Assembly: GCA_964583985.1 (NCBI GenBank)
Contig: CAZOYD010000082.1
Span: 1-13,872, forward strand
From: an uncultured archaeon
GTDB taxonomy: Archaea; Asgardarchaeota; Lokiarchaeia; Sigyniarchaeales; SOKP01
DNA: 13,872 nucleotides
Direction of reading: 5' to 3'
Numbering within the stretch: position 1 is the first letter of the stretch; the number at the start of each line of letters is the position of its first letter. This document shows, in pieces, positions 10,882 to 13,650 of the stretch. A program made the translations under genes and the position numbers. The notes beneath the pieces are model-generated. The model ran no database searches and was not told where the DNA came from. It saw only the letters and a list, made by a program, of their open reading frames with translations.

Positions 10882-13650
10882 TTGGATAAATACAGAATAA
10901 TGACAGAATATAATTCCCAAAATAATACTGATAGTGCGAAGGATATTTTTTCTGAAGATCTAATAAATAAGTTAAGAAAATCCATAAATTATTGTTATGA
11001 TTGCAATCGATGTGTGAATGTTTGCCCAGTATCTTTATATGGTGCTTTTTATCCAAGGAATCTATTTGCAGATATAGAGTTTTTAGGAGTAGAAGAATCT
11101 TTAAAAAAGAACAATGTGTGGGCGTGCTTGACGTGCAGTTTATGCATGGAATATTGTCCAATGTCTACAAATAATGTAGGAGTCAATATTTTAGACGTCA
11201 TCCTAAATCTAAGATCCTTGACAACTGAATACCAACCTCTACAAAATGAAAAGATCGCATGCCAACACAATAGAACCTATTCTAACTTGCCCTCTCTCAT
11301 GGCAAATGATATGATAAAAATTGAAAATAAAATTGGATTTCTCAAGAACACGGGTCTTAAATTCAAACAAAAAGGAGAAATTGCTTATTTTATTGGATGT
11401 CTTCCTTTTATGAACAGTATTGCGCCTTGTTCAATAGGATGTAGCGCAGGGATCGACGTGCAAGGATATATTTCTTTAATTAGGGAGGGGAATTATCAAG
11501 GAGCCCTTGATTTAATCAGGGAAAAGAATCCTTTTCCCGCTGTATGCGGAAGAGTATGTACTCATCCCTGTGAAGATTTATGTAATCGAAAATATATTGA
11601 CGATCCAATCCATATACGAGCTTTGAAACGATATGTTGCTGATTGGGAGATTGAAAACAAGGGTTTCTCTAAAATAAAACCAATAATTCAAGATAAGGAG
11701 AAAGTCGCTATCATAGGATCAGGACCTTCAGGACTAACAGCAGCTTATTTTTTAGCTAGGAAAGGATACAAACCTACAGTTTTTGAAAAAGAAGGATATA
11801 CTGGAGGGAAATTAAGGGATAGCATCCCTGAATATCGGTTACCTCGTGATATCTTAAATTACGAAATTGAATTTATTAAGAATATGGGTGTCGAGATAAG
11901 AACTAATACTCCAATAGGTCAAAATTTAACCTTTGATGATTTATATAACGAAGGATTTAAAGCCATAATGATTTCCATCGGACTATTAAATAGTCGTCAA
12001 ATGGGAATCACGGGTGCAAATCTCGAAAATGTTCTACATGGTCTCGATTTCCTTCAAGGAACAAATATGAATTTAAAGGAATATGACTTTAAGGATAAAA
12101 ATGTTGGCGTGATTGGAGGCGGGAGTACTGCTGTTGATTCAGCTAGAATTGCATTAAGATTGGGAGCAAAAAAAGTCATGATCATCTACAGGAGAACTGA
12201 GACCGAAATGCCAGCATTGGAAGAAGATCTAAAGGGATTAAAAGAAGAAAACATTGAAATCCTTTATTTAACTAATCCAGTGGAGATTTTTGGCGATGAA
12301 GCGGGAGCCTGCTCCGAAGCCGAGTGTGTGAGAATGGAACTTGGAGAACCTGATGAGTCTGGGAGAAGGAGACCAAAAGCCATTGAAAGTTCAGAATTTA
12401 AGCTTAGCTTGGATGTTTTAATATTCGCTCTCGGTCAAGTACCCGATTTATCTTTACTTCAAACAGCTCATGATAAATTAATAATGGGTAAAAATCAAAA
12501 AATTCAATTTAATAGCGATACTTTTGAAACAAATATTCCGGGTGTTTTTATTGGAGGAGATATTCTAGAAGGTGAATGTACTGCAATACAAGCGATAGCT
12601 GATGGTCGAGAGGTCGCAATTTCAATTGATCGTTATCTTAGGGGGAAAGATTTAAAAGAAGGCAGGATTAATAGAAATAAACATGTCTTTAAGAGATCTC
12701 CGATTCCAAAAAAAAAAATTTTTACAAAAGAGAGAGAAGAAATGCAAGAACTCTCAGTTATAGAACGAATTAATAATTTCAATGAGATTGAATTAGGATA
12801 TGATGAAGCGAAAGCTATTCAAGAAGCAAATAGATGCTTGCTATGTAACATGTGTTCAAGTAGCGATCAATCTGCTGAAATTTATGACGAGTCTTCCAAA
12901 GAAACAACTTTTTTTTATGGAGAGAATGCACCACTCCTGAACGTAAACGATATTGATTATACAAAGATAGCAAAATCCTCAATAGCTCTCTTAAATCAAA
13001 AGGGAATTGAACCCGTTGTACTTGCTGATGAAAAATGTTGCGGCCATGATACTCTTTGGCAAGGAGATAAGAAAACCTTTGAAAAATTAGCTAAGTACAA
13101 TTTTAAGTTATTTAAGGATGCTGGCGTGAAGAAAATTATCTTTAGTTGCTCAGAAGGGTATTATACTTGGAAAAATGAATATAAGAAACTTTTTGCTGGT
13201 GATAGTGATTTTGATTTTGAAATATATCACATGACTGAATATATACTAAAAGAACAACTTCTTGATGGGATACAATTCACTAACCAACAAAAAATGAGAG
13301 TCACCTACCATGACGATTGTAGACTGGGAAGATTGAGTAAAACATATGACCCACCTCGTTTAATTCTAAATAAATTGCCCTTTGTGGAATTGGTTGAGAT
13401 GCAAAACAATAAAGAGGATGCCTTGTGTTGCGGTGTTTCTGCATATGTATCTTGTGATGACTATTCAAAAAAAATTCAAGAGACTCGCATAAAAGAAGCA
13501 CTCAAAACTGGTGCGGAATACTTGATAGTTAGCTGCCCAAAATGCTTAACTCATTTCAATTGTTACTTGAATGAACATGAAGAATTAAAACACAGACTTA
13601 AGATCATGGATTTAACAACTTTTATTGCCCAAAATCTATTTCTTATTTGA
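10882..13650 (+). CDS. HdrD-like Fe-S protein (HdrC 2x[4Fe-4S] + two CCG domains) with an inserted GltD/NfnB-like FAD/NAD(P)H oxidoreductase module
   Basis: CYDCNRCVNVCP and CLTCSLCMEYCP, then IAYFIGC. The insert runs APC..GC...CGRVCTHPCE..C, VAIIGSGPSGL, VIGGGSTAVD, YRR, FIGGD, EANRCLLC. The host then resumes with EKCCG, SCSEG, TYHDDCRLGR, LCCG and SCPKC. The true start may be ATG 10900. Confidence 0.9.
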   Translation: MDKYRIMTEYNSQNNTDSAKDIFSEDLINKLRKSINYCYDCNRCVNVCPVSLYGAFYPRNLFADIEFLGVEESLKKNNVWACLTCSLCMEYCPMSTNNVGVNILDVILNLRSLTTEYQPLQNEKIACQHNRTYSNLPSLMANDMIKIENKIGFLKNTGLKFKQKGEIAYFIGCLPFMNSIAPCSIGCSAGIDVQGYISLIREGNYQGALDLIREKNPFPAVCGRVCTHPCEDLCNRKYIDDPIHIRALKRYVADWEIENKGFSKIKPIIQDKEKVAIIGSGPSGLTAAYFLARKGYKPTVFEKEGYTGGKLRDSIPEYRLPRDILNYEIEFIKNMGVEIRTNTPIGQNLTFDDLYNEGFKAIMISIGLLNSRQMGITGANLENVLHGLDFLQGTNMNLKEYDFKDKNVGVIGGGSTAVDSARIALRLGAKKVMIIYRRTETEMPALEEDLKGLKEENIEILYLTNPVEIFGDEAGACSEAECVRMELGEPDESGRRRPKAIESSEFKLSLDVLIFALGQVPDLSLLQTAHDKLIMGKNQKIQFNSDTFETNIPGVFIGGDILEGECTAIQAIADGREVAISIDRYLRGKDLKEGRINRNKHVFKRSPIPKKKIFTKEREEMQELSVIERINNFNEIELGYDEAKAIQEANRCLLCNMCSSSDQSAEIYDESSKETTFFYGENAPLLNVNDIDYTKIAKSSIALLNQKGIEPVVLADEKCCGHDTLWQGDKKTFEKLAKYNFKLFKDAGVKKIIFSCSEGYYTWKNEYKKLFAGDSDFDFEIYHMTEYILKEQLLDGIQFTNQQKMRVTYHDDCRLGRLSKTYDPPRLILNKLPFVELVEMQNNKEDALCCGVSAYVSCDDYSKKIQETRIKEALKTGAEYLIVSCPKCLTHFNCYLNEHEELKHRLKIMDLTTFIAQNLFLI

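What the first reader, a model, noticed from the sequence alone, without database searches (positions are those of the whole stretch)
10882..13650. HdrD-like protein with a complete NAD(P)H-flavin (GltD/NfnB-like) module inserted inside its first CCG domain
Seen: the first CCG domain starts at IAYFIGCLPF (Cys codon 11398). It is interrupted at about 11420 by roughly 500 aa of GltD-like sequence and resumes at about 12950 (DYTKIAKSSIALLNQKGIEPVVLADEKCCG). This is a nested insertion, not an end-to-end fusion. The insert is circularly permuted relative to GltD/SudA: ERINNFNEIELGYDEAKAIQEANRCLLC, normally N-terminal, lies at its C-terminus, which would bring both ends together at one Fe-S cluster and allow loop insertion. 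GxGxxA plus YRR suggests NADPH. Established: such modules are known inserted in HdrA-type (HdrL) proteins; I do not know of a characterised case inside HdrD/CCG. Inference: a single-chain NADPH:heterodisulfide (or other disulfide/thiol) oxidoreductase that bypasses HdrA and HdrE. It could also be the electron partner of the co-regulated glutamate-synthase-like protein.
Basis: partly seen in the sequence, partly recalled or inferred. Interest (0 to 1): 0.85.

Follow-up and report, generated by a model that had tools for sequence, protein, structure and literature searches.

The report
NADPH flavoprotein nested inside HdrD-like protein
An Asgard (Lokiarchaeia-type) archaeon encodes an intact iron-sulfur protein of the heterodisulfide-reductase HdrD type with a complete, rearranged NADPH-binding flavoprotein module inserted in a loop of one of its cysteine-rich domains. 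This probably connects NADPH directly to Hdr-type metal clusters without the usual HdrA subunit, but its substrate is unknown and nobody has tested it.

Summary
ORF 10882-13650 (probable start ATG 10900, 916 aa) is an HdrD-like protein. Its first CCG domain is split after IAYFIGC by a cassette of about 510 aa, a circularly permuted NfnL/GltD-like FAD/NADPH module.

- **Nested insertion:** an un-inserted paralogue in the same genome aligns without a gap across the junction. The AlphaFold model (pLDDT 86) superposes on EtfD as one HdrD-like body.
- **Not a chimera:** about 100 protein clusters and 80 or more genomic loci share the architecture. All come from one GTDB family of Promethearchaeota (32/53 genomes, against 0/197 in 27 other Asgard families).
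- **Permutation is not unique:** the same permuted cassette occurs in HdrL/type III HdrA and in the solved StnA and Bfu-type NfnA. Only its position inside a CCG domain is new.
- **Likely source:** orthologues of the un-inserted paralogue usually sit next to a giant HdrL carrying the same cassette (50-54% identity).
- **Function unproven:** the genome has no MCR, ComA or DsrC, so CoM-S-S-CoB is not the substrate. In 13 of 20 related loci the gene adjoins a tungsten aldehyde oxidoreductase plus polyferredoxin.

This scan has already found the architecture in other genomes. Verdict: a new variant of a known kind, of moderate interest.

The parts
10782..10795 (.). Palindrome GGGAA-N4-TTCCC, 105 nt upstream of ATG 10900. 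A candidate operator shared with the genes at 4694 and 6650.
   Evidence: The window has 3 exact copies, where 0.45 matches are expected even allowing one mismatch. The whole 3.8-Mb genome has only 4 exact sites, and 3 of them are in this window.
10900..13650 (+). Coding sequence of the HdrD-like::NfnL-like nested fusion (916 aa from ATG; the ORF is open from TTG 10882).
   Evidence: a 100% identical 916-aa entry, P0002. There are no internal stops.
10984..11166 (+). HdrC-like ferredoxin domain with two CxxCxxCxxxC motifs (2x[4Fe-4S]).
   Evidence: Pfam Fer4_8/Fer4_17 at residues 35-95. HdrC chains are hit in the PDB. All 8 Cys are invariant in 96 homologues.
11380..11421 (+). N-terminal piece of CCG domain 1: strand beta-1 (IAYFIGC) with the first cluster Cys (codon 11398-11400).
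   Evidence: It aligns to the same strand of the un-inserted paralogue. That strand is where HdrB residue 1 onward superposes on the paralogue model. It is a beta-strand with pLDDT above 90 in the model. The Cys is invariant.
11422..12951 (+). Inserted NfnL/GltD-like cassette (residues 181-690 of the ORF).
   Evidence: It has no counterpart in paralogue P0122. It is contiguous with NCBIfam PRK12771 positions 41-520. It is 49-54% identical to HdrL cassettes. VIA-align gives Z 47 to StnA 8oh5_C and Z 46.9 to NfnA 9n5v_A.
11422..11661 (+). Cassette Fe-S domain, part 1: Fer4_20 profile positions 30-112 (PCxxxC ... CGRVCxxxCxxxC).
   Evidence: The six Cys are invariant.
11701..12603 (+). FAD and NAD(P)H Rossmann domains: GSGPSG 11716-11733, GGGSTA 12115-12132, YRR 12187-12195.
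   Evidence: Pyr_redox_2 at residues 274-574. I-Y-R-R is conserved in all 35 type I clusters and replaced by V-D-I-L in the 57 type II clusters.
12763..12855 (+). Cassette Fe-S domain, part 2: Fer4_20 profile positions 1-30 (ERINNF...EANRCLLCNMC), which is N-terminal in canonical GltD/NfnL.
   Evidence: profile 1-30 at residues 629-658. The three Cys are invariant. After the third Cys, HdrL proteins continue with further Cys of a ferredoxin motif that are lost here.
12952..13299 (+). C-terminal piece of CCG domain 1: helix alpha-1, CCG at 13036-13044, then C-S-E-G (13147-13158) in place of CxxC.
   Evidence: It aligns to P0122 and to the TfrB model. Secondary-structure elements match the paralogue model one to one. 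C, CC, C and Glu are invariant.
13300..13557 (+). CCG domain 2 with the canonical five Cys (C...CCG...CPKC).
   Evidence: Pfam CCG at residues 807-892, profile 1-84 of 85. The Cys are invariant.

Best explanation
The gene encodes a soluble, single-chain, NADPH-dependent iron-sulfur flavoprotein of the Hdr type.

**Proposed electron path.** NADPH reduces the FAD of the inserted NfnL-like cassette. Electrons pass through the cassette's two [4Fe-4S] clusters. One of these is built from both ends of the insert and so sits at the insertion point, ten residues from the first CCG1 cysteine. They continue into the CCG1 and CCG2 clusters of the HdrD-like body. There they reduce a still unidentified disulfide-type acceptor, which is not CoM-S-S-CoB. 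The HdrC-like 2x[4Fe-4S] domain is a second port for a ferredoxin-type partner. In most relatives that partner is probably the polyferredoxin of a neighbouring tungsten aldehyde oxidoreductase.

**Proposed origin.** The protein arose within one Lokiarchaeial family when the cassette was inserted into an hdrD-like gene; the adjacent hdrL gene is the likely source. This gave a non-bifurcating shortcut around HdrA.

**Shown:** the architecture, the insertion point, conservation of all ligands, the NADPH motifs, the restricted distribution, the synteny, and a single origin of the insert.

**Inferred:** cofactor content, direction of electron flow, the acceptor, and the partnership with AOR.
For: - **Nested topology:** shown by the in-genome paralogue without the insert.
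- **Structure:** the AF2 model has pLDDT 86.4 and pTM 0.87. Its HdrD-like halves superpose together on EtfD 9ojn_A (Z 23.8, 363 residues, rmsd 3.3, model range 13-915). Its cassette matches StnA and NfnA at Z 47. The model of the un-inserted paralogue matches EtfD (Z 22.2) and HdrB 8rvu_B (Z 19.0) starting at the IAYF strand.
- **Conservation:** all 8+9+4+5 candidate Fe-S Cys, both dinucleotide glycine motifs and Glu in C-x-E-G are invariant in 96 homologues.
- **Role of the related modules:** in the solved NfnABC and StnABC, the most similar solved modules, this module is the NADPH entry site feeding an Fe-S chain (PMC12018979).
- **Hdr context:** un-inserted orthologues (60-68% identity) lie directly upstream of HdrL (same cassette, 50-54% identity) and MvhD in 6 of 10 loci. 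This places this HdrD subfamily in Hdr-type complexes.
- **Independent fusions:** end-to-end fusions of the same cassette with an HdrD-like body exist in ANME-1c and Syntropharchaeia.
- **Single origin:** all cassettes of the family form one clade, SH-aLRT 98.
Against: - There is no biochemical evidence for any member.
- CCG1 has four Cys, not five. Its invariant Glu sits at the position of His583 of EtfD, which closes the coordination of the neighbouring cluster and makes EtfD a wire, not a catalyst (PMC13083937).
- No known Hdr substrate system is present in the genome: MCR, ComA and DsrC were not found.
- Synteny with AOR plus polyferredoxin (13 of 20 loci) fits a role as an NAD(P)+-reducing exit module at least as well.
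- In this genome the gene is not next to AOR, and its contig ends 222 bp downstream.
Confidence: 0.45

Rival explanations
1. The protein is an NAD(P)+-reducing plug for a tungsten aldehyde oxidoreductase. Electrons from aldehyde oxidation travel through the polyferredoxin into the HdrC-like clusters. They pass along the CCG clusters, which act as a wire as in EtfD, and leave through the cassette FAD to NAD(P)+. This would be analogous to AorC in AorABC.
For: - An AOR (644 aa) and a 16-Cys polyferredoxin adjoin the gene in 13 of 20 related loci, in several genera, for both subtypes and in two orientations.
- In the closest relative, G245, the gene sits in the same syntenic slot that HdrAA-MvhD-FrhB-like occupies next to the AOR orthologue in this genome.
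- AOR-polyferredoxin pairs are known to dock onto flavin modules: AorABC (PMC10413684) and WorABCSL (PMC12318220).
- The EtfD precedent shows CCG clusters serving only as a wire.
Against: - In this genome the gene is unlinked to the AOR orthologue, which has its own HdrA-type partners.
- Gaps of 230-255 bp between the gene and AOR suggest separate promoters.
- 7 of 20 loci lack AOR.
- An HdrD body is a needlessly complex wire compared with AorC.
Confidence: 0.28
2. The protein is a three-port flavin-based bifurcating or confurcating enzyme. The NfnL-like FAD splits or merges electrons between NAD(P)H, a low-potential ferredoxin or polyferredoxin partner, and a high-potential disulfide at the CCG site.
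For: - The cassette is homologous to NfnL, whose FAD bifurcates (4ylf_B Z 39.2).
- The protein has two separate Fe-S entry routes: the cassette clusters and the HdrC-like clusters.
- Its relatives and its syntenic replacement (HdrL, HdrAA-MvhD) belong to bifurcating families.
Against: - In the most similar solved modules (Bfu-type NfnA, StnA) the FAD is not the bifurcating site (PMC12018979).
- No NfnS-like [2Fe-2S] partner is coupled to this gene. The NfnS-like neighbour in some genomes is translationally coupled to a different FrhB::NfnL fusion.
- The geometry could not be examined.
Confidence: 0.15
3. The protein acts like GltD, as electron donor to the co-regulated glutamate-synthase-like FMN protein at 4694-6343.
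For: Three of the four genome-wide copies of GGGAA-N4-TTCCC lie upstream of that gene, of the 84-aa putative regulator and of this gene. GltD-type modules classically feed GltB FMN domains.
Against: - The palindrome is absent upstream of the homologue in 20 other genomes.
- Presence of the GltB-like gene does not follow presence of this gene across the family. For example, genus g4 has the fusion in 4 of 4 genomes and the GltB-like gene in 0 of 5.
- The two genes are never neighbours elsewhere.
Confidence: 0.07
4. The protein is an assembly chimera or a decaying fusion with no function.
For: None beyond the unusual topology. The contig is short (13.9 kb).
Against: The same junctions occur in about 100 protein clusters and in 80 or more loci of independent MAGs, with mean column identity 72% and invariant ligands.
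Confidence: 0.01

Closest known systems
HdrL / type III HdrA / ANME-1 HdrA9-11 (HdrA with an inserted GltD/NfnB-like module)
   Same: It carries the same circularly permuted cassette, 49-54% identical over about 480 aa, also present as a nested insertion in an Hdr-system protein (PMC9012536, PMC12054007). Giant HdrL genes lie next to the un-inserted HdrD-like orthologues in the same archaeal family.
   Different: In HdrL the host is the ferredoxin domain of the flavoprotein HdrA. Here the host is the beta1-alpha1 loop of CCG domain 1 of an HdrD-like protein, and no HdrA part is present. The ferredoxin Cys that follow the cassette in HdrL are lost here.
StnA / Bfu-type NfnA (solved: 8oh5, 9n5u/9n5v, 9bov)
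   Same: These are the best structural and sequence matches to the cassette (Z 47, rmsd 1.9-2.3 over 473-481 residues; 36-39% identity) and have the same permuted order. In these enzymes the module is the NADPH entry site feeding an Fe-S chain.
   Different: Their hosts are HydA/NuoG-like subunits with an N-terminal [2Fe-2S] domain, with no CCG domains. The cluster next to FAD has a Lys ligand there, whereas all four Cys are kept here.
HdrD / HdrBC heterodisulfide reductase (5odc, 8rvu)
   Same: It has an HdrC-like 2x[4Fe-4S] domain followed by two CCG domains. HdrB superposes on the un-inserted paralogue at Z 19.0 over 239 of 284 residues. CCG2 has the full five-Cys motif.
   Different: CCG1 is split by 510 aa and ends in C-x-E-G instead of CxxC. 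There is no HdrE or HdrA partner gene nearby. The genome has no MCR or CoM synthesis gene comA.
Mycobacterial EtfD (9ojn; PMC13083937)
   Same: It is the best solved match to the whole HdrD-like body (Z 23.8, 363 residues). Its first CCG domain also has four Cys. It accepts electrons from a flavoprotein FAD at its CCG clusters.
   Different: EtfD is anchored in the membrane with a haem b domain and reduces menaquinone. Its flavoprotein partner (ETF) is a separate protein. The missing Cys is at a different position (C-T instead of CC).
End-to-end NfnL-like::HdrD-like fusions of ANME-1c ('Ca. Methanoxibalbensis') and Syntropharchaeia (uncharacterised; P0123, P0124)
   Same: They combine the same permuted cassette and an HdrD-like body in one chain, with 36-40% identity in each part.
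   Different: Their domain order is cassette, then ferredoxin, then an intact CCG1 (CAEC), then CCG2. That is a tandem fusion, not a nested one. They occur in organisms that use CoM-S-S-CoB.
AorABC and WorABCSL tungsten aldehyde oxidoreductase complexes
   Same: An AOR plus four-cluster polyferredoxin pair is encoded beside a flavin-containing electron-exit module.
   Different: The exit modules there are AorC (a simple FAD protein) or BfuABC. No Hdr-type module has been described in that role. The link here rests on synteny only and is absent from this window.

Membership tests
HdrD / HdrBC-type CCG proteins (PF02754) | An HdrC-like 2x[4Fe-4S] domain followed by two CCG domains forming one body | tested here: met
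   Pfam Fer4_8 plus two CCG stretches. The TfrB model matches 645-916. The model superposes on EtfD over 363 residues at Z 23.8. The paralogue superposes on HdrB at Z 19.0.
HdrD / HdrBC-type CCG proteins (PF02754) | The full CX31-39CCX35-36CXXC motif in both CCG domains | tested here: not met
   CCG2 has all five Cys. CCG1 has C, CC and C, but the last Cys is Gly (C-S-E-G, with Glu invariant), and its first Cys is 545 residues from CC because of the insert.
CoM-S-S-CoB heterodisulfide reductase (functional class) | The organism makes and uses coenzyme M and coenzyme B (MCR, ComA) | tested here: not met
   PF02249 and PF02679 were not found in the genome, scored 100% complete, and the controls rang. 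DsrC (PF04358) was also not found.
HdrDE membrane complex | An adjacent hdrE (cytochrome b) gene | not tested
   No such gene is in the window or in 20 related loci by Pfam of conserved neighbours. HdrE was not searched for genome-wide.
NfnL / GltD / SudA flavoproteins | A Fer4_20 domain with eight Cys, an FAD GxGxxG motif, and an NADPH GxGxxA motif plus basic residues | tested here: met
   Tma NfnB 4ylf_B matches at Z 39.2 over 410 residues.
NfnL / GltD / SudA flavoproteins | Canonical order, with Fer4_20 positions 1-30 at the N-terminus | tested here: not met
   Profile positions 1-30 lie at residues 629-658, after the flavin domains. This order is shared with PRK12771, HdrL and StnA.
NfnSL transhydrogenase | A partner NfnS (FAD plus [2Fe-2S]) subunit encoded alongside | tested here: inconclusive
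   The contig ends 222 bp after the gene. In relatives the NfnS-like gene is translationally coupled to a different FrhB::NfnL fusion. The best NfnS-like hits in this genome are 37% identical and lie elsewhere.
HdrL / type III HdrA | An HdrA flavoprotein core hosting the cassette in its ferredoxin domain | tested here: not met
   There is no HdrA-like region. Outside the cassette the protein aligns only to HdrD-like proteins.
Bfu-type NfnA / StnA | An N-terminal [2Fe-2S] domain and a NuoG/Fdh-like domain around the cassette | tested here: not met
   PDB alignments cover only residues 178-657. The flanks are HdrC-like and CCG.
Flavin exit module of AOR-polyferredoxin complexes (AorC-like role) | Encoded with an AOR and polyferredoxin and physically associated with them | tested here: inconclusive
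   It is adjacent in 13 of 20 related loci but not in this window. In this genome the AOR orthologue sits with HdrAA-MvhD-FrhB-like. Physical association cannot be tested with these tools.

The most novel reading that the evidence does not exclude
Inserting the cassette may create a composite redox site that exists nowhere else. The NfnL distal cluster would be fused to a four-Cys/Glu CCG1 cluster, possibly sharing a ligand, since the cassette carries nine invariant Cys for two clusters. That site would let the closest archaeal relatives of eukaryotes drive Hdr-type chemistry directly with NAD(P)H on a thiol/disulfide carrier that has not yet been discovered. The NADPH-type and NADH-type subtypes would tune it to the two pyridine-nucleotide pools.
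Probability: 0.15. Interest if true: 0.8.

Novelty: new variant of a known kind. Interest (0 to 1): 0.55.

Why it matters
Hdr-type proteins are numerous in Asgard archaea, yet these organisms lack coenzymes M and B, so what their Hdr machinery reduces is an open question. This family offers a simple handle on that question. It is one soluble polypeptide whose electron donor, NAD(P)H, is predictable, so candidate acceptors can be screened directly.

It is also a clean natural example of domain engineering. A circularly permuted flavoprotein cassette, whose two ends meet at one Fe-S cluster, has been inserted into three unrelated hosts: HdrA, HydA/NuoG-like subunits, and now a CCG domain. The likely donor gene still lies next to the un-inserted host gene in sister genomes.

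The recurring neighbourhood with a tungsten aldehyde oxidoreductase and polyferredoxin suggests a possible third kind of electron plug for such enzymes, after AorC and BfuABC.

Tried and rejected
Neighbourhoods were obtained through the genome search and the fetch from genomes instead.
- **Model coordinates** are not exposed to the script box. Cluster-to-cluster and FAD-to-cluster distances, and the closeness of the cassette termini, could not be measured.
- **Foldseek and VIA searches of the whole model** are dominated by the flavoprotein part. HdrB itself was not listed for the fusion model. I therefore folded the un-inserted paralogue and compared it separately. That model has only pLDDT 70.
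- **Tandem copies:** I first read the T-5-T arrays as two copies of the fusion flanking an NfnS-like partner. This was wrong. The second protein is an FrhB-like::canonical NfnL fusion, and the NfnS-like gene is coupled to it.
- **A general AOR/HdrD-like partnership in this genome** was rejected. The two other co-localised pairs are ordinary GlcD-like plus HdrD-like genes and LutAB next to unrelated AORs.
- **The palindrome as a family-wide operator of this gene** was rejected. It is absent upstream of the homologue in 20 other genomes.
- **Co-occurrence with the GltB-like gene** was rejected.
- **In-frame TAG codons** reported inside some un-inserted orthologues lie upstream of the real start and are not inside the gene.
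- **The cassette tree** does not resolve whether the family's cassettes are sister to the HdrL cassettes of the same archaeal family. It shows only that both lie in one supported group (SH-aLRT 95) and that the fusion's cassettes are monophyletic. It is a quick tree; the careful search did not finish.
- **Literature searches** for an HdrD/GltD or HdrD/NfnB fusion found only HdrA-type inserts. The library lacks most subscription journals, so a description elsewhere is not excluded.

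
Full report
**What is in the window**

The window is a complete 13,872-bp contig of a 3.8-Mb archaeal MAG with about 32% G+C. 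ORF 10882-13650 (+) is open for 922 codons from TTG. ATG 10900 gives a 916-aa product identical to a database entry.

Pfam and NCBIfam divide the protein as follows, in ORF residues:
- An HdrC-like two-cluster ferredoxin domain at 35-95.
- Fer4_20 profile positions 30-112 at residues 181-260.
- A Pyr_redox_2 FAD/NAD(P) region at 274-574.
- Fer4_20 profile positions 1-30 at residues 629-658.
- Two CCG stretches, the second at 807-892.

NCBIfam PRK12771 aligns without a break to residues 174-664. The TfrB model aligns to 645-916. It is GMP synthase, while the glutamate-synthase-like gene is at 4694-6343.

**Is it a nested insertion?**

Yes, on three lines of evidence.

- *Paralogue.* The same genome encodes P0122 (G000:C14, 420 aa), a paralogue with no flavoprotein part. 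It aligns to ORF residues 7-180 (47% identity) and 691-922 (50%). The two blocks are separated by about four residues in the paralogue and by about 510 in this protein. The break falls between strand beta-1 of CCG1 (IAYFIGC, bearing the first cluster Cys) and helix alpha-1.
- *Fusion model.* An AlphaFold2 model built on 96 homologues is confident (pLDDT 86.4, pTM 0.87). Its two HdrD-like halves superpose together on the solved HdrD-like body of mycobacterial EtfD (9ojn_A: Z 23.8, 363 residues, rmsd 3.3 A, model range 13-915). The cassette superposes on StnA and Bfu-type NfnA (Z 47 and 46.9, 473-481 residues, rmsd 1.9-2.3 A).
- *Paralogue model.* A model of the un-inserted paralogue (pLDDT 70) matches EtfD no better (Z 22.2). 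It matches HdrB 8rvu_B at Z 19.0 starting exactly at the IAYF strand. Its secondary-structure elements correspond one to one with those flanking the insert.

**Is it real and conserved?**

About 100 clusters (at 90% identity) of 900-930-aa proteins cover the whole length at 49-64% identity. A scan of one genome per species found 263 relatives. The best 80 loci are almost all from Promethearchaeota/Promethearchaeia MAGs. Among 250 Asgard genomes sampled, the full-length gene occurs in 32 of 53 genomes of the window's own GTDB family. It occurs in none of 197 genomes from 27 other families.

At 50% clustering of 1.84 billion proteins, the family collapses to a single representative (1115 bits). 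The next hit scores 520 bits.

In the 96-sequence alignment every candidate ligand is invariant:
- Eight Cys of the HdrC-like domain.
- Nine Cys of the cassette.
- C, CC and C of CCG1, plus an invariant Glu in C-x-E-G.
- Five Cys of CCG2.
- The FAD and NAD(P) glycine motifs.

An assembly chimera is excluded.

**Two subtypes**

Thirty-five clusters, including the window's protein, carry I-Y-R-R after the second Rossmann strand, which is the NADPH signature of GltD-type proteins. Fifty-seven clusters carry V-D-I-L, where an acidic residue at the end of strand 2 is the usual NADH signature. In a quick maximum-likelihood tree all cassettes of the family form one clade (SH-aLRT 98). The second subtype sits on a long branch nested inside the first. 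This argues for one insertion event followed by a change of nucleotide specificity.

**The permutation is not unique**

The order "Fer4_20 30-112, flavin domains, Fer4_20 1-30" is also found in:
- NCBIfam PRK12771 and PRK12814.
- Large HdrA-like proteins.
- The solved StnA (8oh5) and the Bfu-type NfnA of Thermococcus sibiricus and Caldicellulosiruptor (9n5u, 9bov).

In those enzymes the module is described as an inserted NfnL-like domain that takes electrons from NADPH and passes them to an Fe-S chain. Its FAD is not the bifurcating site (PMC12018979).

[quoted passage not shown] Searches of the paper library for such an insert in HdrD found nothing. The new feature is therefore the host site, a loop of a CCG domain.

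**Where it probably came from**

Orthologues of the un-inserted paralogue (60-68% identity) are present in most genomes of the family. More distant ones occur in five other Asgard families.

In 6 of 10 loci examined, that gene lies directly upstream of a giant HdrL of about 1650 aa. The HdrL consists of an HdrA N-terminus, a cassette 50-54% identical to this one, and two further HdrA-like parts. It is followed by MvhD. In one locus the HdrA protein lacks the cassette.

After the cassette's RCxxCxxC, HdrL proteins continue with further Cys of a ferredoxin motif. In this family those positions are mostly Ser, Asn or Asp, with stray Cys surviving in some members.

The body diverges from the un-inserted orthologues by 43-56% identity, and the cassette from HdrL by 50-54%. 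These levels are similar. A transfer of the cassette from hdrL into the neighbouring hdrD-like gene is the simplest history, but the tree does not prove it.

Separately, archaea that do use CoM-S-S-CoB ('Ca. Methanoxibalbensis', Syntropharchaeia) carry end-to-end fusions of the same cassette with an intact HdrD-like body. The pairing of this NAD(P)H module with HdrD has therefore arisen at least twice.

**Genomic context**

In this window the gene stands alone, divergent from guaA, and the contig ends 222 bp downstream.

In 20 related loci, the only recurrent neighbours are a tungsten aldehyde:ferredoxin oxidoreductase (644 aa) and a translationally coupled polyferredoxin with 16 Cys. They are adjacent in 13 loci, either downstream on the same strand or divergent.

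In this genome the orthologous AOR (90% identity) lies on another contig, in the operon HdrAA-MvhD-FrhB-like-AOR-polyferredoxin. In the closest relative the same slot, bounded by the same sulfotransferase, RDH-like and AlkZ genes, holds this fusion, an NfnS-like gene and an FrhB::NfnL fusion instead.

AOR-polyferredoxin pairs are known to dock onto flavin modules: AorC (PMC10413684) and BfuABC (PMC12318220).

**Local regulation**

The palindrome GGGAA-N4-TTCCC occurs four times in the whole genome. Three of the copies are in this window, upstream of the glutamate-synthase-like gene, of an 84-aa putative regulator, and of this gene.

In relatives the 84-aa gene, preceded by a similar palindrome, sits just upstream of the glutamate-synthase-like gene. 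The palindrome is not found upstream of the fusion in 20 other genomes, and the two genes do not co-occur across the family. In this genome the fusion seems to have been recruited into a small local regulon. That does not define the family's function.

**Mechanism**

- *Shown:* an intact NADPH-type flavoprotein module is wired by covalent topology into an HdrD-like body, with all ligands conserved.
- *Inferred path:* NADPH, then FAD, then two cassette clusters, then the CCG1 and CCG2 clusters, with the HdrC-like clusters as a second port.
- *Main reading:* I favour an NADPH-driven, non-bifurcating Hdr-type reductase acting on an unknown acceptor (0.45). The body belongs to a subfamily encoded with HdrL-MvhD, and the same pairing arose independently in heterodisulfide-using archaea.
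- *Main rival:* an NAD(P)+-reducing exit module for the AOR-polyferredoxin pair, with the CCG clusters acting only as a wire as in EtfD (0.28). The four-Cys CCG1 and the Glu at the position of EtfD His583 fit that reading.
- *Minor rivals:* a three-port bifurcating enzyme (0.15), and a donor for the glutamate-synthase-like protein (0.07).

CoM-S-S-CoB and DsrC are unlikely substrates, because MCR, ComA and DsrC were not found.

**Standing**

This scan has met the same architecture in several other genomes, and earlier follow-ups reached similar conclusions.

New here:
- The in-genome paralogue test.
- The EtfD and HdrB structural comparisons.
- The two nucleotide subtypes.
- The hdrD-hdrL-mvhD donor context.
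- The syntenic swap with HdrAA-MvhD.
- The tandem fusions in ANME-1c and Syntropharchaeia.
- The genome-wide count of the palindrome.

The finding is a new variant of a known kind: a known mobile NAD(P)H cassette in a new host domain, confined to one archaeal family and biochemically untested.

Noticed in passing
window 4645-4658, 6605-6618, 10782-10795 (plus a one-mismatch copy at 6870-6883): The palindrome GGGAA-N4-TTCCC occurs only 4 times in the 3.8-Mb genome. Three copies are here, each upstream of a + strand gene: the GltB-like FMN protein, the 84-aa putative wHTH, and the fusion. In relatives the 84-aa gene, with a GGGA-N6-TCCC palindrome, sits directly upstream of the GltB-like gene.
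   Followed up: partly
window 4694-6343: This 549-aa protein has only a weak Pfam Glu_synthase match (E 2.6e-10) and no NCBIfam match. Even so, it is 72-80% identical across 11 of 13 genera of the family (35 of 60 genomes). It is a conserved, unnamed FMN-type enzyme.
   Followed up: partly
G000:C13 (L049 6280-13821): The operon HdrAA (1039 aa, two HdrA-like halves, no cassette) - MvhD - FrhB-like - tungsten AOR - 16-Cys polyferredoxin is a candidate Hdr-type plug on an AOR-polyferredoxin pair, with no HdrBC gene in the operon.
   Followed up: partly
L143 6812-11710, L145, L146, L147, L139: Giant HdrL genes of about 1650 aa (HdrA N-terminus, NfnL-like cassette, two further HdrA-like parts), followed by MvhD, lie immediately downstream of the un-inserted HdrD-like gene in several genomes of the family.
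   Followed up: partly
L020 3273-6882, L027 7824-11439, L031 10915-14533: An NfnS-like gene (294 aa) is translationally coupled to a 910-aa fusion of an FrhB-like domain with a canonical, non-permuted NfnL. This may be an F420- or ferredoxin-linked Nfn variant. It lies just downstream of the HdrD fusion in genus g1.
   Followed up: partly
proteins P0123, P0124, P0125, P0128: End-to-end fusions of the permuted NfnL-like cassette with an HdrD-like body (one also has an MvhD domain) occur in 'Ca. Methanoxibalbensis ujae' (ANME-1c) and Syntropharchaeia. They are annotated only as FAD-dependent oxidoreductase.
   Followed up: partly
alignment A1 (columns for P0002 residues 429-432): The family splits cleanly into an I-Y-R-R subtype (35 clusters) and a V-D-I-L subtype (57 clusters) at the NAD(P) site. 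Both subtypes occur in the same syntenic position in different genomes of one genus.
   Followed up: partly
G000 contigs C8, C33, C37, C15: This genome has 14 AOR-family paralogues. Four of the six-frame matches contain in-frame stops (TAG in three of them, TAA in the fourth). I did not check whether these are alignment artefacts, pseudogenes or recoding.
   Followed up: no
L132 (DATKTW010000168.1): One contig carrying the fusion is labelled 'Candidatus Nanopelagicaceae bacterium'. It is the same 29,199-bp contig as G161:C168 of the archaeal family, so this is probably a mis-binned or mislabelled record.
   Followed up: no
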